A stretch of DNA of 64,000 bases, taken from contig JBEKJC010000005.1 of assembly GCA_050011435.1 (NCBI GenBank), positions 45,941-109,940 of the forward strand. The letters are read 5' to 3'. Made by a program: the position numbers and the translations under genes. Source of the stretch: Candidatus Binataceae bacterium (GTDB taxonomy: Bacteria > Desulfobacterota > Binatia > Binatales > Binataceae). Positions within the stretch are counted from its first letter, which is position 1; every line of letters starts with the position of its first letter. Shown here piece after piece: positions 32,878 to 61,439 of the stretch. Under the pieces are notes generated by a model. That model was given only the letters and a program-made list of their open reading frames with translations. It made no database searches and was not told where the DNA came from.

Positions 32878-33630
32878 ATGCGCCCCATGTCAGAAGCGAA
32901 AGTCGCATTGATCACGGGCGCCGGCCGCGGTATTGGCCGCGATATCGCGCTCAGGATGGCTCGGGAAGGATACGCGTGCGGACTGATTGCGCGCACCAAG
33001 TCGCAGCTCGACGAGACCGCCGAGCTGATTCGTCAGGCCGGCGGCAAAGCGGTCGTCACGCCGACTGACGTCTCAAAACGCGATCAGGTGGCTGCCGCCG
33101 TCGCCACAGTGGAGCGCGAACTCGGCCCCATCGCGGTGCTCATCAACAACGCCGGCGCCTACCTGCGCAAGCCGTTTGCTGAAATCACGGAAGAGGATTT
33201 CGACTTCCAACTCAAGGTCAACTGCTACGGCCCGTTCTTCTGCACTCAAGCGGTAGTCGCCGGGATGGCCGAGCGTGGCGCCGGCACCATTATCTTCGTG
33301 CTCGGATCGGAGACGCGCGGCGGCCCCGCGCAGTATGCTGCCTACAACGCGTCGAAGGTGGCGCAGCGCGCGGTCGCCGAATCCGTCGCCTACGAATTTA
33401 TGCATCGCGGCGTCCACGCGGTCGCGCTCGACGTCGATGGGGCGGTTGGACTGCCACGCGTGACCGACGCAGCGCACGACGAGGATCCTGATCACTTCGT
33501 CTCGACTGAAGCAATTTGTAGCGAAATCATACACGTAATCAATCAGCCGCGAAATGCGTGGACCTTCGCCATCGATTTGCGGTCCTTCTTCCAATGGCGT
33601 CCGCGGGTCGCGGCCAAGAAAAAGGCCTGA
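32878..33630 (+). CDS. SDR-family oxidoreductase
   Basis: TGAGRGIGRDIA is the cofactor-binding motif, with a YNASK catalytic motif. Confidence 0.85.
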   Translation: MRPMSEAKVALITGAGRGIGRDIALRMAREGYACGLIARTKSQLDETAELIRQAGGKAVVTPTDVSKRDQVAAAVATVERELGPIAVLINNAGAYLRKPFAEITEEDFDFQLKVNCYGPFFCTQAVVAGMAERGAGTIIFVLGSETRGGPAQYAAYNASKVAQRAVAESVAYEFMHRGVHAVALDVDGAVGLPRVTDAAHDEDPDHFVSTEAICSEIIHVINQPRNAWTFAIDLRSFFQWRPRVAAKKKA

Positions 33631-35036
33631 CGTGCCCCGAGTCCGCCCGCGCATCGATACGCTGACGGTGATATGGTCTTCACCGCTGGCGTGCCGTTAT
33701 ACTTCGGGCGCGTCAGTTGTGATTCGACGCCGTCATTCAGGGTCGGGGTGTGGCGCAGCCTGGTAGCGCACACGCTTGGGGTGCGTGTGGTCGCCGGTTC
33801 AAATCCGGCCACCCCGACCAACAATAAATCCTTTGTTTTCAAGTAGTTAGTGCACTGACCGCGCGGTCGACCGCCCGCAGGTTCCGGCGATTGTGCCCAA
33901 TTTTGTGCCCTCCCCCCCTCGTAGCCAGAAATATCCGTGTTTTTTGCGGTGCGCTCCAGGGTCGCGATGGCCTCGCGCCGGGCTTGCACGCGGATGTGAG
34001 CGTAACGGCCAAGCATCCGGTCGCTCACGTGCCCGGCCAGTTGCCGGATGGTCTCGACCGACACGGTCGCGTTCTCCGCAAGACGGGTGACGAACGTGTG
34101 GCGCGCATCGTAGAAGCGGCACGTGACCGCGACCTTTCGCCGTGCGGTTTCAAATGCGCTTTTGTAGCTCCACTGACCCATGGGGCGATTCAGGTCCACG
34201 TCCCAGATCAAAGATTTACGGCTGTTGCCTGCCAAACCCACCCGATGAAACGGGAAGACGTAGTTGTCGGGCCCGGTCTCGGGAAAGCGCCCACGCCAGA
34301 TGGTAAGCGCTGCGCAGGCGCGCCTGGTGAGAGGAATGACGCGGCCGGTGCCACCCTCGGTCTTGGATCGCGACACCACGATCTCGCCTTCGCTGATTGC
34401 GCCATCCGTCCAGCGCAGGGCCAGGTCACACCAATGGAGCGCCCGGCTCTCGGACGGTCGCAGGCCCGCATCCAGCGACAACACGAAAAACGGATACAGG
34501 ACCGGCGACGGGCTTGCGGCAATGGCCGCGAGCAGCTTGTCTTCCTCTTCGAACGAAAGAGCGCGTCCGGCATCGGTCCTTTCTCGGAGAAACCGAACTC
34601 GACCGCCAAGGGGCGACCAGCAGTCGCAGTGCTTGAGAATCTGCCTCAACGTCGCCACTTCGCAATTTATGCTTCGAGCGGAGAGCCGCTCGCCAAGGCG
34701 TTTCCTCTGCAGTGCCGCGATATCGTTGATCGTAATATCCGACACCAGCCTGCTACCGAACTCGCGCACGAGCTTGCGCGAATATTGTTCGTAATAAACT
34801 CTGCCGAGGGGTGTGAGGGCGCTTTTGGATGCGAGCCACTCCTTGGTGGCCAGCGCGAATAGGGGCAAGCGTTCACGTTTGGAGATGCGGTTGTAACCCA
34901 ATTCGAGGTCGCGTCGGCGCGCCCGTTCCGCTTCGCGCGCGACGGTCTTCGAGTTGGTTTTTGCCGAGTCCCGTATGAGCTGCCCTTGGAAGAGGAACTT
35001 GAACCAATACGTCTCGCCTCGTTTATAAACGCTCAT
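33543..35036 (-). CDS. int: tyrosine-type integrase (phage integrase family); the ORF has no stop until 33543 and runs antisense through tRNA-Pro
   Basis: N-terminal SAM-like domain (MSVYKRGETYWFKF...). Catalytic R...HxxR (ARHTFVTRL)...H (LAGHVS)...Y (LGRYAH) around residue 345. RBS GAGAGAGG before ATG 35036. The functional C-terminus is probably well upstream of 33543. Confidence 0.85.
   Translation of the reverse strand: MSVYKRGETYWFKFLFQGQLIRDSAKTNSKTVAREAERARRRDLELGYNRISKRERLPLFALATKEWLASKSALTPLGRVYYEQYSRKLVREFGSRLVSDITINDIAALQRKRLGERLSARSINCEVATLRQILKHCDCWSPLGGRVRFLRERTDAGRALSFEEEDKLLAAIAASPSPVLYPFFVLSLDAGLRPSESRALHWCDLALRWTDGAISEGEIVVSRSKTEGGTGRVIPLTRRACAALTIWRGRFPETGPDNYVFPFHRVGLAGNSRKSLIWDVDLNRPMGQWSYKSAFETARRKVAVTCRFYDARHTFVTRLAENATVSVETIRQLAGHVSDRMLGRYAHIRVQARREAIATLERTAKNTDISGYEGGRAQNWAQSPEPAGGRPRGQCTNYLKTKDLLLVGVAGFEPATTRTPSVCATRLRHTPTLNDGVESQLTRPKYNGTPAVKTISPSAYRCAGGLGARQAFFLAATRGRHWKKDRKSMAKVHAFRG
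33590..33635. repeat. 3' end of the SDR gene; a second copy lies at 48283-48335
   Basis: CGGGTCGCGGCCAAGAAAAAGGCCT is identical over 25 nt, and the flanking TTCCAATGG...GACGT is also similar. Confidence 0.7.
33744..33820 (+). tRNA. tRNA-Pro (anticodon GGG), 77 nt including CCA
   Basis: Folded manually: 7-bp acceptor CGGGGTG/CACCCCG, D-arm GCGC-AGCCTGGTA-GCGC, anticodon arm CACGC-TTGGGGT-GCGTG, T-arm GCCGG-TTCAAAT-CCGGC. Confidence 0.85.
33891..33911. repeat. arm-type-like direct repeat TGTGCCCAATTTTGTGCCCT just inside the left end of the island; a second copy lies at 61086-61106
   Basis: A 20/21-nt exact repeat found near both island ends in the same orientation. It contains an internal GTGCCC-N6-GTGCCC direct repeat. 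Confidence 0.6.
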
Positions 35037-35067
35037 CGTCTTTCCTCTCTCCGTATCTCACGCCATC

Positions 35068-35278
35068 TCACGCCGCCCGACTGCTCGCCTCGGCCAGGTA
35101 GCGACGAACCTCGGCATCGAGCACAACGACTCGACGCCCCAGGTGAGCCGCGCGCAGCCGGCCACGCTTTACTTCGAGCCGCAGAAAGGGGGACGGACAC
35201 GCCCAAGCTGCGCGCCAGTTCCTCGAGCGTCCAACCGAGCTTCGGGCTGTTCGATTTCATCACCGCCTCGCTTTCCAT
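35068..35278 (-). pseudogene. xis: excisionase/AlpA-like HTH DNA-binding protein, frameshifted at a C5/G5 run (35188-35192)
   Basis: Frame 1 reads MESEAVMKSNSPKLGWTLEELARSLGVSVP. After a -1 shift the frame reads FLRLEVKRGRLRAAHLGRRVVVLDAEVRRYLAE. Together they make a complete excisionase-type HTH. Sits directly upstream of int. Confidence 0.55.
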
Positions 35279-35418
35279 AGCGTTACCGTCCTGGCCGTGC
35301 CACTTCGTTGCGCCGTTGTGAGCCGATTTCATGACCTGCACCTCATAGTTGTTACGTTGCATGCAGTTTTGATAGCACACGTCGGTGCGGCCATGCAAAC
35401 GTCCCGAGTGTGCCCGGT

Positions 35419-36117
35419 TTATATGGCGGATTGGTTCGCGAGGTAGCCGAGCTGGACCAGGCGGACGCCGGCAGCCTCAGCCGAGACGAAGAACGCCTCG
35501 CTGACGCGTTGCTTCAGATCTGTCGCCCTGGTCGATTGGGCCGGCAGGGGTGCAACGTCGATTGTGCCAAGGCAAGCCTCGGCGACCAGCTTCAAACGGC
35601 TGATCGGCATCAGCAGAGCTCCGGCCGCGTAGCTCGCCTGCCATTCCATCCAGTCTACCTTGGGCCGCAGCGCGAGCGTCTCGTCGCCCGTGCAGTGCTG
35701 CTCCTGGCGCCTTGCTATCGCCGCTTTTTGATAAAGCGGATTGTGCACGCAAACGTGCACATATTCGTGGGCCAGCGTGAAACGACAACGATGCACGCCC
35801 CTGGCGTCCTCATGAAGCGCTCGGGCGATTCGGACCTCCGGTTTTCCCGGCGGATCGAAGAAGGTGACGCCCAGCAGCCCCTCCGCGACCTTGGTCAGAT
35901 CGGCGTAGAGGTTGAGTTCCCGGGCGTCGCGCTCGATTAGCTTGATGAGCGCGCCGGTCGGCACCGGCACGGTGATCTGGCCGTAAAGTTCGTTCAGAAA
36001 CTCGAACAGGATACGCTCGCAGCATTCATCGAGGTAGGCTCGCGTATACCAGGGACGGCGGCGGAAGCGCCCGGTTGTGTCGTGTATCCACTCAACCTCG
36101 AGATCTTCCTCGCTCAT
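35419..36117 (-). CDS. ImmA/IrrE-family metallo-endopeptidase
   Basis: TLAHEYVHVCVH is the HEXXH motif. DUF955-like, and paired with an XRE HTH gene. Confidence 0.8.
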   Translation of the reverse strand: MSEEDLEVEWIHDTTGRFRRRPWYTRAYLDECCERILFEFLNELYGQITVPVPTGALIKLIERDARELNLYADLTKVAEGLLGVTFFDPPGKPEVRIARALHEDARGVHRCRFTLAHEYVHVCVHNPLYQKAAIARRQEQHCTGDETLALRPKVDWMEWQASYAAGALLMPISRLKLVAEACLGTIDVAPLPAQSTRATDLKQRVSEAFFVSAEAAGVRLVQLGYLANQSAI

Positions 36118-36440
36118 CGCTTCTTCCCCTTGGCCTTGAGCTCCTTGCGGAAAGCGCGATAGGCGGCGAGTACCTGCTCCTCGCCGGCTTCCTTGGGCTG
36201 GATATCGGACGGCACTTTGCCGGCGACGAAGTAGAGCAGGTCGGCTTCGAGGTCGAGTTCCCTGGCGAACTGCTCGATGAGATAGCCACGCGGCGGATGG
36301 CGCAGATTGTGTTCGAGGTCGTTCAGGTACGGCGCCGATATTGGTCGCCCGTCTTCCATCTTGATGCGCGCCGCGAATTCGCGCTGAGTTAGCTTCGCGC
36401 GCTTGCGTCCCTCCGCAATCAGCTCTCCGAAGGTCTTCAT
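36114..36440 (-). CDS. XRE-family HTH transcriptional regulator (ImmR-like)
   Basis: FGELIAEGRKRAKLTQREFAARI matches a Cro/C1 HTH. Overlaps immA by 4 nt. Confidence 0.8.
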   Translation of the reverse strand: MKTFGELIAEGRKRAKLTQREFAARIKMEDGRPISAPYLNDLEHNLRHPPRGYLIEQFARELDLEADLLYFVAGKVPSDIQPKEAGEEQVLAAYRAFRKELKAKGKKR

Positions 36441-36716
36441 GTCACGTTGTGGTGTTCCGCGCCTCCTGCGATGGATATTATCGTGCCTGCATGTAGATGT
36501 CACGAGCGGAACCGGCCGCACTCCCGGCATTGAAAGAGAAAGCGCACTTTTTCTCGCGCCGCTCTCTCAACCAAACCTGGAGAGCGGCGCGCAGGTTTTG
36601 CGATGCGCGCGTCGCAGCGCTGCAACCGTGACGAGCCTTGCGGCCGGCCCGCCAGGGCCGGCGGCGCGGTTGCCAGCGGAGCGCGCGCCACCAGTTTTGC
36701 ACGGTCTGCGACAGCC

Positions 36717-37532: not shown

Positions 37533-40253
37533 TCATCGTCGCAACCCGTGGCCTTGGCAGCGGCGGCGGAGGTTTTGCTCCGCGACGATCCGGACGCCGG
37601 CAAGTGAATTCCTTTGCACGTGTTCCAGAGCCGTGGACTTCTCACGGTTCCGGCTAACAACTTGGCGTAGTCGCTCGTGATCGTCGGTATAAATGCTGAT
37701 GCCGTTCCGGGCGCGGCTGACCGACACGTAGAACTGCTTGCGGTTGATGAGCTCGGCGCTCCGCTCCGTATCGATGTTGACGATGACGCGATCGACAGTC
37801 GTACCCTGGCTTGAGTGGGAGGTCGAGGCGTAGCCGTAGTCGATGTGACGCAGACGCTCAATGGTGGCGTGGATTTCGCGGCCGTCCTCGCCCCGAATCC
37901 TTGCCGTGCGTTCATCGATCGCCAAGATAGTTGCGAACTCACCGTTGGCGAGACCCAGCGTGCGTTCTGGTGCGCGGAACTGAATCCGGTCGCCCGGGGC
38001 GAATTTGCGCTGCTCCGTGCGGAGAACCTCGACCCCGGAAAGCCGCTTCGGTGAATAGTCAAAGCGCCTGCCATCGTTCAGTACCACCGAGAGTCGTCCG
38101 GCGTCGGAGTCCACGCGCTCTACCACCGCGTGAGCGCCCTTCTCTATCCCCAACCTCTTGCTGCCGCGCGTGAATCGCACGATGTCGCCTACGTCGTAAT
38201 TTCGAGCTTGTCCGCGCTGACTGCGGGTCAGGTCGCGATTTACGAACACGGTGTGCAACACCTCGCGGCAATCGATCATCCCGCGTTCCTTCAGCGTCTG
38301 CCGGATGACGGCATTGAGTTGGCGCCGTTCCTCGTTGGCCGGACTTACCACTAAGACGCGTTCCCGCGCACCATGGGCTGCGACGTATTCCGCGGCGATC
38401 GACGCGTAGCGCCTGACGGTATCGCCAAGCTCTCGGATTCGACCGAATCGTTCCAGGATGTCGATCGACTCGGCGATCTCTCCGTTCGCCGCGTGGTTAA
38501 CCGCTTTGCGCAGTTCGGGATCGCGCTGGCGGCGAATCACGTCGAGCCGGGCGACCCGCATGCCGGCCTGCTGCATCTGATAGAGCGGCCGTCCCGCCTC
38601 GATCGCATGATGCTGGCGCTGGTCGCCGACGAAGACAATCCGCACAACGCCCGCGTCGCGAGCCTTGCGCAAGAGGCCGTTCACTTGTCCGGTCCCGAGC
38701 AGGCTCGATTCATCGATGATCCAAAGCTCTTTGCCTTGTGCTTCTGGTATTGGATTCTCGATGAGGCTCGCGACGGTGCGGGCAGAGATCCCCGCGTCGC
38801 CGAGCGCCTTAACGGCACGCGTCGTTGGCGCGAATCCTTGCACGGCATAACCGTAATCCTCGGCGAACTCCCGAATCGCCCCAACCGTAGTGGTCTTCGC
38901 CGCTCCCGCGCGTCCCTCGACCGCACTGATCCAGTCGTTCGCGGTCACTGTTAGCTCCGCGACCTCGGCCTGATCGGAGAGCAGCCCTCGTCGTGCAGCC
39001 CACGCGCGAACCTCGTTTGCACTTGCGATACTTTGCGCGCCATCCCGACCAACCAGCATCAGATCTAGATTCTCGCGTTCAAGCGCCACCATCTGCGGTG
39101 TCGTGAAAGCGCCCTGCGGCGATCTGACGGTGGCGCCAATCTGGATCAGATTGGCGGCTCGTTCCCATCCATCCGCAACACTCCGCACCTGCTCAAGGTC
39201 CGCCCTGCCCATCGCATGCTGGAGTGCGGTCGCCTCGATTGCGCGGCGGTCGATCACCGCTTCGCGTTCGGTGTGGTGCGCGACGCTGTATTCGAGCGCA
39301 TCGTCTATCGAGGCCTTACTTCGCTCTGGCACTGGTTGGAGATTCGTGAGCGGCCGGGCCAGTTCGATTCGATATTCGTGTGCGCGCTCGCGCCATTCCG
39401 CCTTGAGGCTCTCTTCGTCGCGACGGTCCTTGGGGCACCTGGTCTGATGGGCGAGGTTCTGTGCGGCAGCGGCACCGTTTAGTCCCTGACGCGCCATCGC
39501 CGCCTCGATGTCCTGGCGCCGGCGCGAAAATGCCATCACCTGCTCGCGAGTGTATCCCGCAAGCTCCCAGCGGCCATCTGCGCCAGTCACATCGATCCGA
39601 TAGCCGAGATCTTGCACTTTAAGCGCAAGCTCCGAACGGTACACGCTGGTCGCGAAACTCTGCGAGCGGTAGATCTCGATCGGATCGAGCCCGCGCCACG
39701 CGCCGTCTGGGCGCCTCGTCATGTTGGCGATCACGACGTGGGTGTGGAGGTGCGGGTCGGGGCCGTAGCCGTCGTCAGCGCCCTGTGAAGGTCGCGCGGC
39801 GATGTGGTCGAAGCGGGCCGCGACGACGTTTCCGGTGATCACCCATTCGTGCCCGCCGTGCTGGCGCGATAACGCATAGCCCTCAAGTTCGGTAAGAGCG
39901 CGACTCACGGCGTTGCGATGCGCCTCCGCGAGCCGCGCGTCGCTGCCAACCAACGCCTGCACGCTTACCGACTTGGGCGCGTTGAAGGTTGCATCCCATC
40001 CGGCGCGGCGTTCGTCGCTGCCCCTGGCGTTTGGAACCAGCACTTCGCCGGTCGCCGGATTAAGCCCGTGCAATACGGCGCGAAAATCATCTGACGAAAC
40101 CTCTTCCGCGAGTCCGAGCGCTTCCCCTCCTCGACCGCACCACTGTCCGGCAACCCGGTGCTGCTCGGTGTAGTAGTCGTCCTGGGAGTATTTTTCCTGG
40201 TAATAGGTCTCCGCCTGTTTGGCGCTGAGCGCGCCTTTCGACATGACCAGCAT
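37533..40253 (-). CDS. MobF-family conjugative relaxase (TrwC/TraI-like relaxase plus RecD-like helicase)
   Basis: Relaxase N-domain (AETYYQEKY...DYY, with HTHVVIAN as the His triad). C-terminal AAA_30/UvrD-like helicase (GRAGAAKTT, ViVFVGDQRQ). Confidence 0.9.
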   Translation of the reverse strand: MLVMSKGALSAKQAETYYQEKYSQDDYYTEQHRVAGQWCGRGGEALGLAEEVSSDDFRAVLHGLNPATGEVLVPNARGSDERRAGWDATFNAPKSVSVQALVGSDARLAEAHRNAVSRALTELEGYALSRQHGGHEWVITGNVVAARFDHIAARPSQGADDGYGPDPHLHTHVVIANMTRRPDGAWRGLDPIEIYRSQSFATSVYRSELALKVQDLGYRIDVTGADGRWELAGYTREQVMAFSRRRQDIEAAMARQGLNGAAAAQNLAHQTRCPKDRRDEESLKAEWRERAHEYRIELARPLTNLQPVPERSKASIDDALEYSVAHHTEREAVIDRRAIEATALQHAMGRADLEQVRSVADGWERAANLIQIGATVRSPQGAFTTPQMVALERENLDLMLVGRDGAQSIASANEVRAWAARRGLLSDQAEVAELTVTANDWISAVEGRAGAAKTTTVGAIREFAEDYGYAVQGFAPTTRAVKALGDAGISARTVASLIENPIPEAQGKELWIIDESSLLGTGQVNGLLRKARDAGVVRIVFVGDQRQHHAIEAGRPLYQMQQAGMRVARLDVIRRQRDPELRKAVNHAANGEIAESIDILERFGRIRELGDTVRRYASIAAEYVAAHGARERVLVVSPANEERRQLNAVIRQTLKERGMIDCREVLHTVFVNRDLTRSQRGQARNYDVGDIVRFTRGSKRLGIEKGAHAVVERVDSDAGRLSVVLNDGRRFDYSPKRLSGVEVLRTEQRKFAPGDRIQFRAPERTLGLANGEFATILAIDERTARIRGEDGREIHATIERLRHIDYGYASTSHSSQGTTVDRVIVNIDTERSAELINRKQFYVSVSRARNGISIYTDDHERLRQVVSRNREKSTALEHVQRNSLAGVRIVAEQNLRRRCQGHGLRR

Positions 40254-40256
40254 CGC

Positions 40257-42083
40257 TCATGCCCGAAGGCGCCTGCTCGACGGCGCCTGCTGACTGGTGG
40301 GAGCCTTGGTTAGCCGCTCGCCCGGTAACCGGAGATTGCCGGCCGGCATCGACGCTGCGCTTTGATCGCTGGACTGCGCCGCCATCACCCGGCGCATGAA
40401 ACCCGGATGGCGCTTGATCGGGGCGAGATACGGAATCGTGACCCGCGCCCGGTGATGGCCGGTGACGCAGAGATAGCCCTCGAACGGTTGCAGCATCTGA
40501 ATCTCGCTGCCAAGCACGGAGCTCTCGATGATGCGCTGCGGATGAACGGAGAAGCTGTCGCGGTGCTCCTTCAGGCCGGTGTTGCTTCCGATCTGCGAGC
40601 GGCTGATTTCGCGCTCGCCGATCTGCGCGCTCGACCAGCGTGCGGTCTCGGCCTCGCCGGTGCGCAGGATTAGCTTGGTCGCCGGCGCCGCGGCGAGCGT
40701 CGCGGTCTGCTCGTGGCCGTAGATCGCGCGCAGCTGGGTGATCGCCTGAAACCCCAGCACCGCGCACAGTCCGCGCTTGCGCCCGCGCACGACCAACGCT
40801 TCGAACTGGCTCTGGCGTTTCAGTACCGGCAACTCGTCGGCGACGATCCAGACCTGCTCGCGCCGCTCCTGTTCTGCCATCAGCCGGCGCACGATGCAGT
40901 CGAGCCACACGCTCTGCAGCGGCAACGCCGCGTCGCGCGAGTCCTCGGTCGAAGTCAAAAACAGCCATCCCTCCCGCGCCTGCGCCCATTCGAGCGCGCT
41001 CCACGCCCACTCGGTCCCGCTCGGCAGATAGCGGAGCGAGTTGGTCGCGTTGAAGGCCGTCGCGACGATTCCCGCCCCCTGATCGTGCGCACCGGGATCG
41101 ATGAGCGCTTCTGCCGGCGTGCCCCGCAGCGCCTCCTTGAGTTTCGCTCTTGGCAGGGCGAGCAGCTTCGGGATGTCGCCGGGCTCGCGCGACCTGACGC
41201 TCTCAAGCAGCCCGACGATCAGCGTCCGCGCCGATTGCCGAAAGAAGAAGTCGGCGCCGCTCTGGCTGAACATGTTGGACGGGTCAGGGATGAGCGCCGC
41301 CGCCAGCGCCTCGGCGTCCATCGCCTCGCTGCCGGGCTTGAGCTCCCACCACGGCGACCATGCCGGGCAGCGCGCATCGAGCGGGTTCAGGATCAGGTCG
41401 CGGCGCGCGTGCCGGAAGAACTCGGGGAGGTATTCGCACTCCGGGTCGAGCACCACGGCGGTTTCGCCGCGCGCCTCGATCTGCCGTAGCATGCGGCGGA
41501 TGGCGGTGGATTTTCCAGAGCCGGGCGCACCCACGAACATGAAGTGCTGGGGCTCCAACGTCCGCTGGATACGAATGCCGCCGATCTCGACGCCGTTGCC
41601 CTGAAGCTCGTGACGCAGGCGGCGCTGCGGGACAACGTCGGTCCCGCGCACATAGCGGTCGTCGGTATGGTCGCGTCTGGGCCTAAAGAGGATCAGGCCG
41701 ATCCCGACGACGGTAATCGCCGTGACCAGAAAGCCCCACGGCGCATAGTGCCAGAACCAGCCGGGGAACGAACCGCCGGAGTAGTACTTGTAGCAGAGGA
41801 ACGGGTACATGCTCGGGATGGTGTAGCGCCCGCCGCGGTAGGGCACCGAGCCGAACGGCAAAGGGATGATCTCGCTGAAGAACCAGGTCAGAATCCAGAG
41901 TCGGAAGTGACGTTGAGCGGCCGCGCCGCCATAGTAACCGGTCCAGTACCAGACCAGACCGAACGTCAGGGCCGCCCACACCAGCGTCATCACGACCGCG
42001 ACTCGCGCCGCCATCTGCGTCCACAGCGCGAGCGATGCGCCGTCCGACCGCCATCTGATCGCCCGGTAAACACCCGCGCTCAT
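40257..42083 (-). CDS. type IV coupling protein (TraD/TrwB/VirD4 family)
   Basis: N-terminal TM helices. Walker A FVGAPGSGKST. TraD/TraG-like core. Confidence 0.9.
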   Translation of the reverse strand: MSAGVYRAIRWRSDGASLALWTQMAARVAVVMTLVWAALTFGLVWYWTGYYGGAAAQRHFRLWILTWFFSEIIPLPFGSVPYRGGRYTIPSMYPFLCYKYYSGGSFPGWFWHYAPWGFLVTAITVVGIGLILFRPRRDHTDDRYVRGTDVVPQRRLRHELQGNGVEIGGIRIQRTLEPQHFMFVGAPGSGKSTAIRRMLRQIEARGETAVVLDPECEYLPEFFRHARRDLILNPLDARCPAWSPWWELKPGSEAMDAEALAAALIPDPSNMFSQSGADFFFRQSARTLIVGLLESVRSREPGDIPKLLALPRAKLKEALRGTPAEALIDPGAHDQGAGIVATAFNATNSLRYLPSGTEWAWSALEWAQAREGWLFLTSTEDSRDAALPLQSVWLDCIVRRLMAEQERREQVWIVADELPVLKRQSQFEALVVRGRKRGLCAVLGFQAITQLRAIYGHEQTATLAAAPATKLILRTGEAETARWSSAQIGEREISRSQIGSNTGLKEHRDSFSVHPQRIIESSVLGSEIQMLQPFEGYLCVTGHHRARVTIPYLAPIKRHPGFMRRVMAAQSSDQSAASMPAGNLRLPGERLTKAPTSQQAPSSRRLRA

Positions 42084-48282: not shown

Positions 48283-48335
48283 CCAGTCCAATGGGCGGGT
48301 CGCGGCCAAGAAAAAGGCCTCGCCTGACGTTCGGG
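48283..48335. repeat. relic copy of the SDR gene 3' end (pairs with 33590-33635)
   Basis: A 25-nt identical core plus similar flanks. It lies 22 nt after the GT9 stop and marks the junction between the mobility module and the lower-GC cargo. Confidence 0.7.
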
Positions 48336-54053: not shown

Positions 54054-56279
54054 TTAACGAATATATGTTGGCGGGTTGCGCTCTCCGACGGCCCGGCTGC
54101 GCACCAGTTCGGCGAGGCCCGGTAATTGATCTCTATCAATCACCATTAAAAGGATCCATTTCCTCGCGTCCGGACTGCTTGTGCTGATTGAGCGGGGCGG
54201 CGATATCTCGACTCTCTTCACCAATATCCGGTACACCGTGGCGAGCCGTTCCACGACTTCTCGAGAGCTGAGCACCCCGATAAGAATTTGCCTGTCGTTG
54301 AACGACTCGAGTACCATGCCGTTTTGCGCAGGCGTGGCGCGGTCATATATCGACACACCCGAAACCCACAACGGTGGTAGAAGCCCAAGCCGCTGCACTT
54401 CAGACGGGCTCAGCCCCGCAGGACTTAGCCCGCGCGCGGTATATTCGCTTGCTGCGTTAATCAAAGCGTCAAGGCGTTCGGTGGCGACAGCTTCTTCCTC
54501 CTTTCGCGGATCATGACTTATGTAACTGCTCAAACGAGATAGCGGCACTTCATAGATGGAAACACCACCCACCTTAATCGGGTTCAAAGCAAGACTCGCG
54601 AAGGTCGCGTTTATCGCTCGCTTCTCGTCCGGTTCGAAATGGCTGCGCTCCGTCGTCGGAGGACCTTGGTCGAAAACCAATCTCCACATGTGCGCTCCCT
54701 CGTCAGCAACGATCACCTTGCTAATATGCTTCTGAACTAAAAACGTCTTCAGTGCCTCATCTGAGTGTGGAATTACCGTTAAATTATACAGACTATCCGT
54801 AATCGCATAACGTGCGAATTCCCTTGGGAGCGGAGTCACGCTAACCCATCCACCTGCCATCCGAAAATACAGATGAGTATTCACCAGCCAAATATCACTA
54901 TTCCCCTCGTCCCCGTATGGAAGCATTAAAACGATCTCACCTGGTGACAGATATTGTTTGTACATATCTGTCGCGAAAAATGCTGGTGTGTCAACGTCAG
55001 TCGTCCAGAAAGCAGCACTGGGGTTAGGTAAATAGCATAATATGATTGCAATCGCGCCAGCGATTCGGACCGTCGGTTGGATTGTTTTGTCGGCCAACCA
55101 GAGACTCGCAATTATCGCGAAAATAAGGAAAGCATACAGAGCAAAACGCGCCGGTAGTACTTCGTCGCTAAGAGGCAGGCGAGAAAGTATTGTCCACGGC
55201 ATCGGTATTGTCAGATGGGTAGTAATGCGAAGTATCGGGCCAAGCGAAGCTAAGAGAATTATAATTAGCAAGGCCAGAAGTAGCCTAGTCTGTGCCACCA
55301 TCCAATGTCTGCGCGAGTAACTCCACACTATGAGGATTAATGGGAACGCAACGTACGCTCCAGTTTCTTGAAGGTTAAATCCACCGCAGAGCTTCCTGGC
55401 AAAGAGGGAGGTGCCGAAACAATTAGTGGGTGAAGGAAAAAACATTCCAGATACATGAATTGAAACAGCTGTGGCCAGGCCAGTTGGAAAGTCCTGAGGT
55501 CCAAACACGAAAAAGTAATATAGATACAGACTAAGCAAGACTGCAGTAATAATATATGCGAACGAAATGGGGAATATTAGAACGATCAGGCGATCGCGCC
55601 ATTGAGGCGCTATCCAGTAGCCGATCGCAAAGGCTGCCCAGCCGAATACTGTTGCAGTAGCGAATACCTCTAGTGAGCATGTGGCTTGAATTGTCAAAAG
55701 AAGGCACAGCATTATTATGAATCGACGGGAAGGCCAGATACCGTCTATTCGGAGCAGTATTACCATTAAAATGATAGGAATCGCGAAAACCATCAATGCG
55801 TGAAGATGGCCCAACATTTGCCCGAGCATGTATGGAGAGAACCCGAAAATATAGCCGCCGACAAAAGCCGACCTTGATGACGACGATAAATACCGACAAA
55901 CAGTGAAGCCGGTCCACGCAGCAATCGCCGGACTTACGAGTATCATCAAATTGTAGGTTGCTAGCGGTCCGAGATACTCGGTCAGCGGAGAGGCTAAGAT
56001 ACCAGCGAGTGGGACGAATGTCGTACGAGCGAGATTTAGTCCACTCGGAGCCCAGACAATGTTCGTAAAAAATGGATTTAAGCGATGAAGTATTGCGTAC
56101 TTCCACCATTCCAAGAAGAAAATGAACAAGCCCGGGTCGGTGCCGATTCCGATGTAGCGGTCCGAAAGATGGCCGACCAGGCCGCGCCCGAAGAACAGAA
56201 AGGAGAGAGCAAGATAGATTGCGAACGCTCCGAGACCGAGGCGGTTACCCAGGCTTTCTTGAATAGTTTTAGATTTCAC
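54054..56279 (-). CDS. large membrane protein, paralog A (N-terminal ~13-TM domain plus C-terminal periplasmic domain)
   Basis: 741 aa. N-terminus LSFLFFGRGLVGHLSDRYIGIGTDPGLFIFFLEWWKY is shared with paralog B (roughly 45% identity overall). Confidence 0.5.
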   Translation of the reverse strand: MKSKTIQESLGNRLGLGAFAIYLALSFLFFGRGLVGHLSDRYIGIGTDPGLFIFFLEWWKYAILHRLNPFFTNIVWAPSGLNLARTTFVPLAGILASPLTEYLGPLATYNLMILVSPAIAAWTGFTVCRYLSSSSRSAFVGGYIFGFSPYMLGQMLGHLHALMVFAIPIILMVILLRIDGIWPSRRFIIMLCLLLTIQATCSLEVFATATVFGWAAFAIGYWIAPQWRDRLIVLIFPISFAYIITAVLLSLYLYYFFVFGPQDFPTGLATAVSIHVSGMFFPSPTNCFGTSLFARKLCGGFNLQETGAYVAFPLILIVWSYSRRHWMVAQTRLLLALLIIILLASLGPILRITTHLTIPMPWTILSRLPLSDEVLPARFALYAFLIFAIIASLWLADKTIQPTVRIAGAIAIILCYLPNPSAAFWTTDVDTPAFFATDMYKQYLSPGEIVLMLPYGDEGNSDIWLVNTHLYFRMAGGWVSVTPLPREFARYAITDSLYNLTVIPHSDEALKTFLVQKHISKVIVADEGAHMWRLVFDQGPPTTERSHFEPDEKRAINATFASLALNPIKVGGVSIYEVPLSRLSSYISHDPRKEEEAVATERLDALINAASEYTARGLSPAGLSPSEVQRLGLLPPLWVSGVSIYDRATPAQNGMVLESFNDRQILIGVLSSREVVERLATVYRILVKRVEISPPRSISTSSPDARKWILLMVIDRDQLPGLAELVRSRAVGERNPPTYIR

Positions 56280-58447
56280 TTCTCGTGCGGTGTCGCGGCT
56301 GCGGAACCCAGACGGGTTGGATCAAACTCCAGCAGTAAAATCCATTGGGTGCTCTCCGCCCAGATCGCTACCGGCATCAGCGGCGAAACTTCGACCTTCT
56401 TCGCGAAAGGCTTGTAGATCGGGGCGACGGCTTCAACTGTATCGCGCGCGCCCATCACTCCGACCAATACATCTCCATTATTGACAGATGAGAGCACCAA
56501 GCCATTTACCAGGGAGGCTCGCGGATCGAGGGCATTGACCCCAGAGGCCCAGTGCGGCGGAAGAAGTTTCAAGCGTTGGGCTTCAACCGGACTCAGGTCA
56601 GATGAAGGATGACCATCTGCAAGATACTTCTGCGCGGCACTGATAAGCGCGCCGAGTTGAACGGCCACCATTCGCCTTTCGAGAACGCGCGGGTCCACGT
56701 TCTTGTAGGCGTCCAGTTTCTCGAGTGGAACCTGGTAGAAAGAGACACCGCCAATATGTATGGGTGCGACGCCCAGCGACGCGAACAACGAACGAATTAC
56801 TATTCTTTCGTCGGTAGTGAACTCGGTACGTTTGGGAAACTGCGGTCCGGGGTCATTGTTCTTTATCCATAAGTGCGCGCCGTCGTCTGCGACGACGATC
56901 GAGTTAACCTTCTTCTGAACCAGAAAGGCCTTGAGCATTTCGCCCGCATAAGGAAAGTCGGCCAAGGTGTAGAAGCCATAGATCGTTGGAAAGTACGGCA
57001 GATACTCCCTTGGAATTGGCGGCTGGCCTACATATCCGCCGGCCATGCGGAAATAAAATCCACTCATAGCCTGCCAGATATCGCCAGTGGCGAATCCGCC
57101 ATAGGGAAGAATCAAAACATTATCGTCGGGCGCAATGTAGCGTCTATATATTCGAGCCGAAAAGAAAGCCGGTGCGTCAACAGGCGTCGTCCAGTAAGAT
57201 GCGCTTAAATTTGGCAGCGTGAAAAATACCACGGCGCCGGCGCCTGCCATTCGGAGAGTCTGCCGGATGGAGCCATCGCTGAGCCAGAGACTCACCACTA
57301 TACCTAGAATCAGAAAGCAGTAAACCGAGAATCGCTCGGGCATAGCTTTGTCTATCAGCGGCAAATGCGCTGCGATTGCCCATGGTAATGGAATTGGTCG
57401 AGATGCCGGGATGCGTAATTCCGATCCAAGCGAAGCAACGGTGACAACCACCAGAAGCATCACGAGAAGTCGCGTGCGCCAATCGTGCCAATGGGCGTGC
57501 GCGAAGGCCACAACAATTAGAAGCAGCGGCAGCGCGATGTATGCTCCGGTCTCGTAAATGTTACTTCCACGGGACAGTTCGTGAACCAGATGGATTGTTC
57601 CAAGCAGAGTAGTGGTCGTCGGAATTAGAAAATTGGAAGGGTAAACCGAAACGAACTGTCTCAATCCACCTGGAAGCGGCAGATGGCCGAATGCGTAAAA
57701 GTAGTAAAGGTACGGACTGAGGATAATCGCACTCGCGACATACGCGCATGAAGTTGGAAGGACGAGACCTTGCAGACGTTCGCGCCATTGGGGCGCCGTC
57801 CACCATGCGATCGCTATCGCAGTGCCGCCAAATAGGGTAGCCGTAGCCACCGCCTCCGGCCAGCACAGGAAGAGAGCGACTATCAAGATGCTCAATGTGA
57901 TCGCGAAGTTGCGTGTGCTGATTTCCTCGTTCAGCCGCCGCAATGTCACTAGTACCATCAAGGGCACCGGAAACATCATCAGTACCGTTAAGTGGCCGAG
58001 TAAGTGACAGAGCATCCACGGAGAAAAGCCGAAAGCATAGCCGCCAACGACAGCCGCCCAGAACGAAGAACATAGATACCGGCAGAGAAGGAAGGCGGTC
58101 CATGCTGCGAGTGCCGGGCAGAGCAGCACCAACAGGTTGAAGGTCGCGATGGGACCCAGGGTTGCAGTGAGCGGGATCGCGGCGATTCCAAAAAGTGGTA
58201 TGAAGGTTACCCAAGCCAGGTTGGCGCCGCTTGGCGCCCATTGCAGATAGGTGAAGAACGGGTTTACGTGATGAGTGAAGACGTATTTCCACCATTCGAG
58301 GTAGAAAATGAAAGCGCCCGGATCCGTACCGATTCCTATGTAACGGTCGGAAAGATGACCCACCAGACCACGGCCAAAGAATAGAAACGAGAGAACCAGA
58401 TAGATAAAAAGTGGACTGACCTTACTATAATCTCGCCTACCACACAT
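56276..58447 (-). CDS. large membrane protein, paralog B
   Basis: 723 aa in tandem with paralog A, overlapping it by 4 nt. Same architecture. Confidence 0.5.
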   Translation of the reverse strand: MCGRRDYSKVSPLFIYLVLSFLFFGRGLVGHLSDRYIGIGTDPGAFIFYLEWWKYVFTHHVNPFFTYLQWAPSGANLAWVTFIPLFGIAAIPLTATLGPIATFNLLVLLCPALAAWTAFLLCRYLCSSFWAAVVGGYAFGFSPWMLCHLLGHLTVLMMFPVPLMVLVTLRRLNEEISTRNFAITLSILIVALFLCWPEAVATATLFGGTAIAIAWWTAPQWRERLQGLVLPTSCAYVASAIILSPYLYYFYAFGHLPLPGGLRQFVSVYPSNFLIPTTTTLLGTIHLVHELSRGSNIYETGAYIALPLLLIVVAFAHAHWHDWRTRLLVMLLVVVTVASLGSELRIPASRPIPLPWAIAAHLPLIDKAMPERFSVYCFLILGIVVSLWLSDGSIRQTLRMAGAGAVVFFTLPNLSASYWTTPVDAPAFFSARIYRRYIAPDDNVLILPYGGFATGDIWQAMSGFYFRMAGGYVGQPPIPREYLPYFPTIYGFYTLADFPYAGEMLKAFLVQKKVNSIVVADDGAHLWIKNNDPGPQFPKRTEFTTDERIVIRSLFASLGVAPIHIGGVSFYQVPLEKLDAYKNVDPRVLERRMVAVQLGALISAAQKYLADGHPSSDLSPVEAQRLKLLPPHWASGVNALDPRASLVNGLVLSSVNNGDVLVGVMGARDTVEAVAPIYKPFAKKVEVSPLMPVAIWAESTQWILLLEFDPTRLGSAAATPHEK

Positions 58448-59230
58448 GGTTGCAGCCCAACTCCCACCACCTCAGGAGCACCATGATGCCAAAGAAACAT
58501 GCCAATGTCAGCGGCGGCACCAGCAGACTGAATGGGCGGTGCCGTCTCGGAAGCCGGCCACGGAGAGGTCGGCAACTGCGCGTCTCTGCATTCGGGCTAT
58601 GCCGAAGCCGTGGCGCTCCTCGATCCCGTATTGGCCGGTCGTGCGACGGCGAGAATCCGCGGAGGGCTTCGTAAATGTGATCCGCTCTCGAAATCACCCG
58701 TCAGGCTTCTACGCTCTCTTTTAAATCTCGTTTACAAATCAGCCGGCCATGTCGAGTGGGATCCCGGCGATTCCAAAAAGTGGTATGAAGGTTGACCAGG
58801 CCAGATTGGCGCCGCTTGGCGCCCATTGCAGATAGGTGAAAAACGGATTTACGTGATGAGTGAAGACGTATTTCCACCATTCGAGGAAGAAAATGAACAA
58901 TCCGGGGTCGGTGCCGATTCCAACGTAGCGATCCGAGAGATGTCCGACCAAGCCACGTCCAAAGAATAGAAACGAGAGAACCAGATAAATAAAAGGCGGA
59001 CTGACCTTACTATAATCTCGTCTACCACACATGCTTGCAGCCCAACTCACGCCACCTCAGGAGCCCCATGATGCCAAAAAAACATGCCAATGTCAGCCCG
59101 GTCGCACCTGCAGATTGAGTGGGCGGTACCATATCGTGAGCTGGCCAAAGAGAGGTCGGCGTCGACCCGGTCCTGCGTGCGGGCTATGCCGAAGCCGTGG
59201 CGCTTCTCGATCCCGTATCGGCCCGGATTG
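58166..59230. repeat. tandem duplication: ~480-bp segment (58166-58645) repeated at 58751-59230, ~90% identical
   Basis: Read directly. It spans the first ~280 nt of paralog B plus ~200 nt of upstream sequence. Confidence 0.75.
58739..59032 (-). pseudogene. 5' fragment of paralog B created by the tandem duplication
   Basis: Encodes MCGRRDYSKVSPPFIYLVLSFLFFGRG...FIPLFGIAG, nearly identical to the first ~90 aa of paralog B. It terminates at the copy boundary. Confidence 0.55.
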
Positions 59231-60916: not shown

Positions 60917-61085
60917 TCGATCGGAACCAGAGCAGCTCCCTCAATCGCATTATCCGATAGGGCGGGGCTGCCTATGTCTGATCGCCAACTCTTCGGAGCA
61001 CTCGATCCTGGGACCGCGCCGCGAGTCTCTTCGAAATGAGACCGGCTTTCCCTGCCCGATTCACGCTCACAGGCGGACAATTTAC

Positions 61086-61106
61086 TGTGCCCAATTTTGT
61101 GCCCTA
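61086..61106. repeat. second copy of the arm-type-like repeat CTGTGCCCAATTTTGTGCCCT, ~130 bp inside the right island end
   Basis: Identical to 33891-33911 over 20 nt in the same orientation. Confidence 0.6.
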
Positions 61107-61237
61107 CCTGCATCAAAATTGGTGTCACTCGATACTGCTCCAGAGTTCAAGTCCAAGTGCAGGAAACCCCTCTGCCACAAGGGTTTTCGTGCTACCGAGC
61201 GGTACTGAACGATACCTATGATTCTTCGTCATTTTCG

Positions 61238-61282
61238 TTTGGGGTGCGTGTGGTCGCCGGTTCAAATCCGGCCACCCCGACC
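61238..61282 (+). repeat. 45-nt 3' fragment of tRNA-Pro (anticodon loop to CCA): right attachment-site direct repeat
   Basis: TTGGGGTGCGTGTGGTCGCCGGTTCAAATCCGGCCACCCCGACCA is identical to 33776-33820. Confidence 0.85.
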
Positions 61283-61439
61283 ATTTTTCCTCACTCGTTA
61301 GGCGCTCTGCCTGTTTCGCAGACGCCCAGCGCCGCGCGCCGCCGTTGAGCGTGATTGTTTCAAACCTTGGCGCAATCGCGGTCGTCTCTCTTGATGTGCT
61401 GGTGGCGGCAACCTGGCACCAGCTCTCTCGCGGGTGCGA

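What the first reader, a model, noticed from the sequence alone, without database searches (positions are those of the whole stretch)
33543..35036. Integrase ORF lacks a stop in the integrated state and reads antisense through the tRNA and into the SDR 3' end
The catalytic Tyr (LGRYAH) is at about residue 345, but the frame stays open for ~150 more codons. It crosses the arm motif, the complement of tRNA-Pro, and the region complementary to the SDR gene end, down to 33543. If the island is circularised in silico (61237 joined to 33821), the same frame terminates 8 codons after the core (…TRTPNENDEES*). So the native int 3' end appears to overlap attP, and integration swaps its C-terminus. This would be a built-in switch between the integrated and excised forms.
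Basis: inference. Interest (0 to 1): 0.5.

Follow-up and report, generated by a model that had tools for sequence, protein, structure and literature searches.

The report
Integrase gene reading across its attachment site
The integrase gene of a 27-kb mobile island inserted in a proline tRNA gene has no stop codon before the island's recombination site, so insertion really does change the protein's last residues, but the part that changes is an unconserved, apparently floppy tail and the arrangement is already known from phage Mx8.

Summary
ORF 33543-35036(-) encodes 497 aa with catalytic Tyr345. It runs antisense through tRNA-Pro(GGG) (33744-33820) and 88 nt into the SDR gene. Joining the two 45-nt att repeats (33776-33820, 61239-61283) in silico gives 427 aa ending TRTPNENDEES*.

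A 76%-identical relative exists in exactly this attP-like configuration (L001, ...TRTPSENGEES*). The int 3' end therefore overlaps attP, with the P' arm site in codons 375-382 and the core in codons 406-421, and integration does swap the C-terminus.

The "built-in switch" reading is not supported:
- Protein-level conservation stops at about residue 361.
- Between there and the core, the tail evolves at dN/dS 0.5-1.2, against 0.05-0.13 for the body.
- AlphaFold gives pLDDT <50 for residues 371-497.
- Different integrases read the arm motif in all three frames.
- Integrated relatives end 14 to about 340 codons past the core, at unrelated places.
- Most family members stop 10-36 nt before the tRNA.

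The best reading is a passive by-product of packing attP into the int 3' end after loss of the usual stop. Integrases extending across attP are known (Mx8, SSV). Interest is low to moderate.

The parts
33543..35036 (-). Integrase ORF as it stands in the integrated state (497 aa).
   Evidence: PF00589 matches residues 160-349 and the catalytic Tyr is at 345. Foldseek matches Tn1549 Int, Cre and lambda Int.
33939..35036 (-). Conserved, folded part of Int (residues 1-366). It comprises an N-terminal three-stranded arm-binding-like domain, the core-binding domain and the catalytic domain.
   Evidence: The last nearly invariant alignment column is L360. The AF2 fold ends with helix 346-366. dN/dS is 0.05-0.13.
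33543..33938 (-). Unconstrained C-terminal tail (residues 367-497). It is the translation of the P' arm, the core, the rest of the tRNA, the intergenic DNA and the antisense SDR 3' end.
   Evidence: pLDDT is <50 for residues 371-497, with no secondary structure. For residues ~362-405, pN is about equal to pS. Relatives have unrelated tails past the tRNA.
33891..33910 (-). P' arm-type site. Two GGGCACAA half-sites at 12-nt period, lying inside int codons 375-382 (GRAQNWAQ), 70 nt from the tRNA 3' end.
   Evidence: There are only two copies in the window, against 0 expected by chance.
33776..33820 (.). attL core. A 45-nt exact repeat equal to the 3' part of tRNA-Pro, covering int codons 406-421 (VGVAGFEPATTRTP).
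33744..33820 (+). tRNA-Pro(GGG), the integration target, intact.
32878..33630 (+). Chromosomal short-chain dehydrogenase gene. Its last 88 nt are overlapped antisense by the int ORF.
   Evidence: The same SDR-tRNA-Pro context occurs in L002, L010, L015, L161 and L162.
61239..61283 (.). attR core, the second copy of the 45-nt repeat. Chromosomal flank follows from 61284.
61216..61238 (-). Island right-end DNA that supplies the last 7 codons and the TAG stop (61218-61216) of int in the excised (attP) form.
   Evidence: The stop is at the same position in L001 and L144.
61085..61104 (-). P arm-type site. Same motif and orientation as the P' site, 134 nt from the attR core.
   Evidence: L144 has the same 134-nt offset and L001 has 135 nt.
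35419..36530 (-). ImmA/IrrE-like M78 peptidase (35419-36117) and Xre-type HTH repressor-like gene (36114-36530). Both are on the int strand, just upstream of int.
   Evidence: The same module sits beside P0001's int.
37533..42083 (-). TrwC-type relaxase-helicase (37533-40253) and TrwB-type coupling protein (40257-42083). These are the mobilisation genes of the island.

Best explanation
Bases 33776-61283 are a ~27.5-kb integrative mobilisable element inserted in the 3' end of tRNA-Pro(GGG). Its tyrosine integrase gene is transcribed towards the attachment site, and its 3' end is laid over the P' half of attP. The P' arm-type site sits in codons 375-382 and the 45-bp core in codons 406-421.

In most members of this integrase family the ORF stops (...LLN*) 10-36 nt before the tRNA-derived core. 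In the tRNA-Pro clade that stop is absent. Translation therefore continues through the core in one of its two open antisense frames and ends at the first stop in whatever DNA lies beyond:
- 8 codons on in the excised form (TAG supplied by the island's right end);
- 76 codons on in this integrated copy;
- 14 to about 340 codons on in integrated relatives;
- 73-115 codons on in tandem-island junctions.

The exchanged segment belongs to a tail after residue ~366 that is conserved only as DNA (arm site, fixed arm-to-core spacing, core). As protein it evolves neutrally and is predicted to be disordered. The C-terminal swap is therefore real but most likely a passive consequence of attP/int overlap, not an evolved switch.

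Shown here: the ORF, the att repeats, the arm sites, the attP-form stop, the lack of constraint on the tail, and its variability. Inferred: that both isoforms are made and are about equally active, and that the clade lost an ancestral stop.
For: ORF, tRNA and repeats.

Natural attP-like junction. L001 is colinear with the window's right end, with matched P and P' arm motifs and the same in-frame TAG. L144 is a third cognate-type P arm with the TAG at the same place.

Family survey. Of 120 homologs, 116 have a recognisable Tyr motif. Their median tail after the Tyr is 47 aa, and 97 end 30-56 aa after it. Nineteen of the 120 read into antisense tRNA (Pro, Gly and others). In typical members the stop lies 10 nt (L021-L023) or 36 nt (L016) before the tRNA.

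The tail is not constrained as protein:
- The last near-invariant alignment column is L360.
- Body dN/dS is 0.05-0.13. The tail has pN 0.38-0.57, about equal to pS, giving a ratio of 0.5-1.2.
- Different integrases read the arm motif as AQNWAQ, GHKIGH or GTKLGT, and in some it lies after the stop.
- The arm-to-core spacing is fixed at 24 codons in eight lineages, which points to a DNA-level constraint.
- AF2 gives pLDDT <50 and no secondary structure for residues 371-497.

Ends of the ORF. Post-core ends are unrelated among integrated relatives. L015/L028 run about 340 codons past the core, antisense through the whole SDR gene. Long stop-free runs are common in this GC-rich window.
Against: - All 13 distinct relatives keep the int frame free of stops in the 72-nt arm-to-core spacer, while the other two frames carry 0-2 stops. 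This could mean selection to keep the frame open. Shared ancestry and DNA-level conservation of the core-proximal half weaken the argument.
- The three cognate-type P arms all place a TAG 8 codons after the core. The three non-cognate (tandem) junctions whose int frame is intact run on for 73-115 codons. This hints that a short, defined tail in the excised form is maintained.
- In Mx8 the analogous swap is reported to change integrase behaviour (review PMC6070905).
- No expression or activity data exist for either isoform.
Confidence: 0.7

Rival explanations
1. It is an evolved isoform switch of the Mx8 IntP/IntX type. The excised element makes a 427-aa Int with a short acidic end (NENDEES). 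The integrated element makes a 497-aa Int with a 76-residue foreign tail. The two would differ in activity, site preference or stability, stabilising the integrated state or biasing directionality.
For: - The swap is real.
- The TAG lies 8 codons after the core in 3 of 3 cognate-type P arms, and the first 30 nt after the core are 87% identical between the window and L001, against 53% further out.
- The int frame is open in the spacer of all 13 distinct relatives.
- There is precedent: in Mx8, attP lies within int and integration creates a new 3' end that modifies integrase specificity (PMC6070905; PMC4383910).
Against: - The tail evolves neutrally as protein and is predicted to be disordered.
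- L144 encodes EKPDKS where the window has ENDEES.
- Integrated tails differ in length and sequence even between integrases 95% identical (P0001 versus the window).
- Most of the family stops before the core and evidently works.
- Excision needs the integrated isoform to be active.
- Neither end resembles an ssrA-type degradation tag.
Confidence: 0.15
2. The consequence lies at the RNA level, not the protein level. Integration removes the native 3' end of the int mRNA. The transcript then runs antisense into tRNA-Pro and the SDR gene, with convergent transcription, a possible non-stop mRNA and tmRNA tagging. This would be analogous in logic to lambda sib retroregulation.
For: - The geometry is as in lambda: int is transcribed towards attP, and the DNA beyond the core differs between the two states.
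- A weak terminator-like hairpin on the minus strand at 33638-33622 lies inside the extended ORF, upstream of its stop.
Against: - No terminator-like site was found at 60800-61400.
- The hairpin beyond the attP-form stop folds no better than shuffled sequence (z +0.30 for the window, -1.21 for L001).
- Terminator-like hits at 33300-35500 number 5, against 2.3 +/- 1.5 expected.
- Rfam finds nothing but the tRNA.
Confidence: 0.1
3. It is an artefact: a sequencing or assembly error, or a decaying pseudogene, removed the true stop codon.
For: Most homologs stop about 47 residues after the Tyr. Some relatives are clearly frameshifted (L012/L014, L031, L037).
Against: - The same open tail occurs in P0001 (95% identity, a different sample) and in at least eight diverged lineages from many metagenomes.
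- Body dN/dS of 0.05-0.13 and invariant catalytic residues show a gene under selection.
Confidence: 0.02

Closest known systems
Myxococcus phage Mx8 IntP, whose attP lies inside the int coding sequence (Tojo et al. 1996; Magrini et al. 1999; as summarised in PMC6070905 and PMC4383910)
   Same: It is a tyrosine integrase whose ORF extends across the attP core. Integration into a tRNA gene 3' end (target recalled from memory, not checked in a paper here) gives the prophage copy a new 3' end and a different C-terminus. The catalytic part stays intact.
   Different: In Mx8 the exchange is reported to alter integrase behaviour. From memory, a long C-terminal stretch is replaced by a short one there. 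Here a short end (7 residues) is replaced by a long one (76 residues), the exchanged part shows no protein-level constraint, and no functional data exist. No sequence comparison with Mx8 Int was made.
SSV1-type fusellovirus integrases (attP within int)
   Same: The integrase ORF spans attP and the target is a tRNA gene (PMC4383910).
   Different: From memory, in SSV1 the core splits the gene into two parts, so the integrated copy is disrupted. Here all conserved and catalytic residues lie upstream of the core, and only a tail is exchanged.
Lambda int-attP-sib arrangement (retroregulation)
   Same: int is transcribed towards attP, the P' arm abuts the int 3' end, and the DNA beyond the core differs between prophage and phage (established knowledge).
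   Different: Lambda int has its stop before the core and the effect is on mRNA decay through an RNase III hairpin. No comparable hairpin or terminator was detected here.
Integration-dependent immunity of mycobacteriophages BPs/Brujita (PMC3694055)
   Same: attP lies inside a coding sequence, so viral and prophage forms of a protein differ at the C-terminus, which is a true integration-sensing switch.
   Different: There the gene is the repressor, and integration removes a proteolysis tag. Here the gene is int. The repressor-like HTH gene (36114-36530) is 2.3 kb from the core, and no tag-like end is present.
ICEBs1-type immR-immA-int regulatory module
   Same: An Xre-type HTH gene, an ImmA/IrrE M78 peptidase gene and int lie on one strand next to a tRNA-gene attachment site. 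The ICEBs1 arrangement is from memory.
   Different: Here a ~380-nt gap separates the peptidase gene from int. The mobilisation genes are TrwC/TrwB-type, and no T4SS genes were seen among the ORFs scanned.

Membership tests
Tyrosine recombinase / phage integrase (PF00589) | Catalytic domain matching the family profile above its curated cut-off. | tested here: met
   PF00589 scores 60.4 bits against a cut-off of 27.1, over residues 160-349.
Tyrosine recombinase / phage integrase (PF00589) | Catalytic residues R...K...(H/Y)xxR...H...Y present. | tested here: met
   R193, K225, R312, H336 and Y345 are invariant in the 47-sequence alignment, with Y309 in the YDAR motif. Assigning them to catalytic roles is inference from family knowledge.
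Tyrosine recombinase / phage integrase (PF00589) | Recombinase fold. | tested here: met
   The AF2 model has pLDDT mostly >85 for residues 1-330. Foldseek gives E = 2.5e-9 to Tn1549 Int and also matches Cre and full-length lambda Int.
Heterobivalent (lambda-type) integrase with arm-type sites | N-terminal arm-binding domain. | tested here: inconclusive
   AF2 shows a three-stranded sheet (residues 2-24) plus a helix (30-48), and alignments to full-length lambda Int cover ~370 columns. No Pfam arm-domain hit was found at E <= 0.01.
Heterobivalent (lambda-type) integrase with arm-type sites | Repeated arm-type sites on both sides of the core, distinct from the core sequence. | tested here: met
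   The identical 19-mer GGGCACAAAATTGGGCACA lies 70 nt from the core on the P' side and 134 nt on the P side, in the same orientation. These are the only two copies in 64 kb. The geometry is the same in L001 and L144.
Heterobivalent (lambda-type) integrase with arm-type sites | Int binds the arm sites. | not testable with these tools
   The only evidence is indirect. Motif type co-varies with N-terminal residues 13 and 20 in 68 homologs, with phylogeny not controlled.
tRNA-gene-integrated genomic island / integrative mobilisable element | Direct repeat of the tRNA 3' part at both ends, with int next to the intact tRNA. | tested here: met
   A 45-nt exact repeat 27.46 kb apart, with int adjacent to tRNA-Pro.
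tRNA-gene-integrated genomic island / integrative mobilisable element | Transfer functions (relaxase, coupling protein; a T4SS for a full ICE). | tested here: inconclusive
   A TrwC relaxase and a TrwB coupling protein are present. No T4SS family was found among the 20 ORFs scanned, so it looks mobilisable rather than self-transmissible. Not every ORF was scanned.
tRNA-gene-integrated genomic island / integrative mobilisable element | Empty site or excised circle observed. | tested here: inconclusive
   An attP-like junction of a 76%-identical relative exists (L001). On a 1.7-kb contig a circle cannot be told from a tandem pair. No empty attB was retrieved.
Integrases that extend across attP (Mx8 IntP type) | The attP core lies inside the int ORF. 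| tested here: met
   The core occupies codons 406-421 of the ORF in both states.
Integrases that extend across attP (Mx8 IntP type) | Integration gives the integrated copy a different C-terminus. | tested here: met
   427 aa (...TRTPNENDEES*) against 497 aa (...TRTPSVCATRLRH...AFRG*). This is in silico for the window, and an attP-like form was observed in L001.
Integrases that extend across attP (Mx8 IntP type) | The two forms differ in activity or specificity. | not testable with these tools
   There are no functional data. Sequence evidence argues that the tail is unconstrained.
SSV1-type split integrase | The core splits conserved or catalytic parts of int, so that the integrated gene is disrupted. 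| tested here: not met
   All conserved columns (up to L360) and Tyr345 lie upstream of the core at codons 406-421.
Integration-dependent immunity (BPs/Brujita type) | attP inside the repressor gene, with integration removing a C-terminal degradation tag. | tested here: not met
   The core is in the int tail. The HTH repressor-like gene lies at 36114-36530. The excised-form end is ...NENDEES, which is not ssrA-like.
Lambda sib-type retroregulation | A stable hairpin or terminator beyond attP that acts on int mRNA only in one state. | tested here: not met
   There are 0 terminator-like sites in 60800-61400. Fold z-scores are +0.30 and -1.21.

The most novel reading that the evidence does not exclude
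In a whole clade of tRNA-Pro-targeting integrative elements of Binataceae-like soil bacteria, loss of the pre-core stop codon is maintained by selection. The excised element would then make an Int with a short, defined acidic end, while every integrated or tandem copy makes an Int with an arbitrary long foreign tail that lowers its stability or changes its directionality. That would be a generic, Mx8-like integration sensor built from nothing more than the position of a stop codon.
Probability: 0.12. Interest if true: 0.55.

Novelty: new member of a known kind. Interest (0 to 1): 0.25.

Why it matters
If the tail exchange affected Int activity or stability, it would be a very cheap way for a mobile element to sense whether it is integrated. 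It would also extend the single well-studied bacterial case, Mx8, to a widespread group of soil-bacterial elements.

On present evidence the practical value is mostly for annotation:
- Integrase ORFs of this family are routinely over-extended into antisense tRNA and neighbouring genes (19 of 120 homologs here).
- Their C-terminal 'motifs' (AQNWAQ, GHKIGH, GTKLGT, GFEPAT) are translations of attP DNA, not protein features.
- The true island boundary lies inside the annotated int gene.

Tried and rejected
- Terminator or RNase III-type hairpin beyond the attP-form stop (a lambda sib analogue). A conserved-looking hairpin (AAACCC..GGGTTT) in the window and L001 did not pass the terminator scan and folds no better than shuffles. 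Rejected as unsupported.
- Using the other non-tRNA junctions (L006, L007/L019, L012/L014, L031, L035) as further attP examples. Their P-arm motifs (for example CCCCACAAAAGTCCCCACA) differ from the P' motif of the adjacent int. They are probably junctions between different islands inserted in tandem, not cognate attP sites.
- The scan of viral contigs for the arm 19-mer gave no hit.
- A sequence search of the PDB gave no hit at E <= 0.01. The fold search was needed instead.
- The primary Mx8 papers (PMC93897, PMC178153) are not held, so Mx8 is cited through a review and the Islander paper.
- The repeat between the SDR 3' end and the island interior (48295-48320) was tested as a possible relic att site. 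Homology is confined to ~26 nt. It is not an att relic and remains unexplained.
- No empty attB site was retrieved. The single genome and metagenome scans went on the arm motif and the integrase.
Full report
**1. The observation**

The ORF is exactly as described. It spans 33543..35036 on the minus strand and encodes 497 aa, from an ATG start to a TGA stop. Pfam places a Phage_integrase domain at residues 160-349. The LGRYAH motif puts the catalytic Tyr at residue 345, and 152 codons follow it.

ARAGORN and Rfam both find one tRNA in the window, tRNA-Pro(GGG) at 33744-33820 on the plus strand. The ORF crosses it antisense at codons 406-431. It then continues through the intergenic DNA and 88 nt into the 3' end of a short-chain dehydrogenase (SDR) gene at 32878-33630.

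The 3' 45 nt of the tRNA (33776-33820) are repeated exactly at 61239-61283. A 19-mer, GGGCACAAAATTGGGCACA, occurs only twice in the 64 kb. One copy lies at 33892-33910, inside int codons 375-382. The other lies at 61086-61104, 134 nt from the right-hand repeat, in the same orientation.

Joining the two repeat copies in silico gives a 427-aa ORF ending ...TRTPNENDEES*. Its TAG is at 61218-61216.

**2. Artefact or chance?**

It is not an artefact. P0001 is 95% identical, comes from a different metagenome, and has the same open tail through the tRNA. At least eight diverged lineages (70-80% identical) do the same.

The length of the open stretch past the core is not statistically notable in this GC-rich DNA. 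Of all codon positions in the six frames of the window, 20% have at least 105 stop-free codons ahead. In L015/L028 the same frame happens to stay open antisense through the entire SDR gene, about 340 codons past the core.

**3. What the element is**

The repeats bound a ~27.5-kb island. On the int strand, just upstream of int, lie an ImmA/IrrE-type M78 peptidase gene and an Xre-type HTH gene. Further in are a PIN gene, a TrwC relaxase-helicase and a TrwB coupling protein. There is also an IS3-type transposase and cargo genes: glycosyltransferases GT9 and GT87, PMT_2, a methyltransferase and an aldolase.

No T4SS genes were seen among the ORFs scanned, so it looks like an integrative mobilisable element. 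Relatives of the integrase sit in the same module (L161) or in a T4SS-carrying ICE next to the same SDR-tRNA-Pro context (L162).

The Int model is a tyrosine recombinase with an N-terminal three-stranded sheet, as in heterobivalent integrases.

**4. Does int really overlap attP?**

Yes. L001 is the contig of P0008, whose Int is 76% identical. It carries, in order: int, the P' 19-mer, the core, GCGAAAATGGCGAAGAATCATAG, and the same 19-mer 135 nt past the core. This is colinear with the window's right end read on the minus strand. Its ORF ends ...TRTPSENGEES*.

On a 1.7-kb contig an excised circle cannot be told from two like islands in tandem.

L144 holds a third P arm of the same motif type after a tRNA-Pro core, again with an in-frame TAG at the same place (...TRTPSEKPDKS*).

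The other non-tRNA junctions (L006, L007/L019, L012/L014, L031, L035) carry P-arm motifs of a different type from the adjacent int's P' motif. They are best read as different islands in tandem. Where the int frame is intact there (L006, L007/L019, L035), it runs on for 73-115 codons.

**5. Where do homologous integrases end?**

Of 120 homologs, 116 have a recognisable Tyr motif. Their median tail after the Tyr is 47 residues, and 97 of them end 30-56 residues after it. The typical ending is ...(G/S)(A/P)Q(N/K)x(A/P)QS......LLN*.

In such members the stop lies 10 nt (L021-L023, tRNA-Val) or 36 nt (L016, tRNA-Asn) before the tRNA 3' end. The int 3' end therefore abuts the core throughout the family.

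Nineteen of the 120 read into antisense tRNA, for example tRNA-Pro or tRNA-Gly. Genome loci add integrases that read into tRNA-Thr, tRNA-Gln and tRNA-Asn. The window belongs to the tRNA-Pro clade, in which the pre-core stop is missing.

In that clade, the codon where relatives have the stop reads Y (TAC), L (TTA), R (AGA) or M (ATG). This is compatible with loss of an ancestral stop, but that step is inference.

**6. Is the exchanged tail a functional piece of protein?**

The evidence says no.

- (a) The last nearly invariant alignment column is L360.
- (b) Pairwise Nei-Gojobori estimates give dN/dS of 0.05-0.13 for the body. From residue ~362 to the core, leaving out the arm motif, pN is 0.38-0.57, about equal to pS, for a ratio of 0.5-1.2.
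- (c) The arm 19-mer is translated as AQNWAQ, GHKIGH or GTKLGT by different integrases, some only 23-30% identical to this one. In some it lies after the stop. It is therefore conserved as DNA, not as peptide.
- (d) The distance from the arm site to the core is fixed at 24 codons in eight lineages whose sequence there is otherwise unalignable. This is an attP-geometry constraint, and it also keeps the frame trivially.
- (e) AlphaFold gives pLDDT <50 and no secondary structure for residues 371-497. The fold ends with helix 346-366.
- (f) Tails past the tRNA are unrelated among integrated relatives, even at 95% identity.

**7. What speaks for some selection?**

In all 13 distinct spacer sequences the int frame has no stop, while the other frames have 0-2.

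All three cognate-type P arms have the early TAG. The first 30 nt past the core are 87% identical between the window and L001, against 53% further out.

Both observations are confounded by shared ancestry and by DNA-level sites. The TAG sits at the edge of the first of three GGTAnC-like repeats at ~10-nt spacing, which could be binding sites for a directionality factor. The peptide is also not conserved in L144. I treat these as hints only.

**8. Mechanism and rivals**

Best explanation (0.7). attP is packed into the int 3' end, and the clade lacks the pre-core stop. Translation therefore ends at the first stop in whatever flanks the core. Integration swaps a 7-residue end for a 76-residue one, but only within a disordered, unconstrained tail. 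Both forms must work: excision uses the integrated form and integration the excised form.

Rival 1 (0.15). A true isoform switch as reported for Mx8. There attP lies within int, and integration creates a new 3' end that modifies integrase specificity without inactivating it (PMC6070905).

Rival 2 (0.1). An RNA-level effect in the manner of lambda sib. No terminator or unusually stable hairpin lies beyond the attP-form stop. A weak terminator-like site at 33638-33622 inside the extended ORF could in principle give non-stop transcripts. This is speculative.

Rival 3 (0.02). An artefact, contradicted by the independent relatives.

**9. Comparison with what is known**

Integrases that extend across attP are documented. 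[quoted passage not shown]

The present case meets the structural criteria of the Mx8 type: the core lies inside the ORF and the integrated copy has a different C-terminus. It is not SSV-like, because no conserved part is split off.

It is not integration-dependent immunity. There attP lies in the repressor gene and integration removes a degradation tag (PMC3694055).

It is therefore a new member of a known kind, and on present evidence probably a functionally silent one.

**10. Verdict**

The structural interpretation is supported. The 'built-in switch' is unsupported but not excluded.

Interest is 0.25. The more unusual thing met on the way is the arm-site 19-mer itself. It is conserved exactly in more than 118 genome stretches across several phyla, and its variant types co-vary with two N-terminal Int residues. 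Details are under noticed in passing.

Noticed in passing
The genomes are MAGs of Acidobacteriota/Terriglobia, Binataceae, Nitrospira, Desulfobacterota and others. It usually lies 57-101 nt from the 3' end of an opposite-strand tRNA of many isoacceptor types. Integrases as little as 23-30% identical to this one read it in all three frames (AQNWAQ, GHKIGH, GTKLGT). No paper in the held library contains the sequence.
   Followed up: partly
Int residues 13 and 20 (window 34998-35000 and 34977-34979, minus strand) versus the C-terminal motif: Among 68 full-length homologs, the arm-motif type co-varies perfectly with N-terminal residues. With the GGGCACAA type (AQNWAQ), residue 13 is K in 39 of 39. 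With the CCCCACAA type (PQNPPQ/PQKSPQ), it is E or D in 29 of 29, and residue 20 is R in 28 of 29, against mostly L or V in the first type. Both residues lie on strands of the predicted N-terminal sheet. They are candidate specificity determinants, but phylogeny was not controlled.
   Followed up: partly
L006, L007/L019, L012/L014, L031, L035, L144: These are junctions of int, the tRNA-Pro core and a P arm whose arm motif is of a different type from the int's own P' motif. They imply tandem arrays of different but related islands at tRNA-Pro(GGG), seen in several samples.
   Followed up: partly
window 33603-33628 and 48295-48320: A ~26-nt exact repeat (CGGGTCGCGGCCAAGAAAAAGGCCT) links the SDR 3' end, outside the island, to a spot just after the GT9 gene inside the island. 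There is no homology beyond it. It contains a GGCC..GGCC hairpin and may be a shared terminator-like element. It remains unexplained.
   Followed up: partly
window 61185-61216 (minus strand) and the aligned positions of L001, L007, L012, L144: Three GGTAnC-like repeats at about 10-nt spacing (AGGTATCG, CAGTACCG, CGGTAGCA) lie between the core and the P arm site. They are recognisable in several related P arms. They could be binding sites for an excisionase-type factor. The attP-form TAG stop sits at the edge of the first repeat.
   Followed up: no
window 33828-33836 (minus strand); spacers of 13 relatives: A conserved GGATTT lies 9-14 nt before the core and repeats the GGATTT of the core's antisense T-arm (GGATTTGAACC). 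It could be an extra core-type Int binding site.
   Followed up: no
window 55983-59223: There are three diverged copies of a 300-nt unit (55983, 58169, 58754; 60-88% identity). There is also a two-copy 125-nt repeat (58512, 59099). Both lie in and beside a 723-aa ORF (56276-58447) with no Pfam hit.
   Followed up: no
window 35033-35398: A 121-aa ORF overlaps the int start by 4 nt. It has no Pfam hit, and the 95%-identical relative's contig has no gene call at that position. It is probably not a gene, which leaves a ~380-nt gap between the ImmA-like gene and int that could hold an int promoter.
   Followed up: partly
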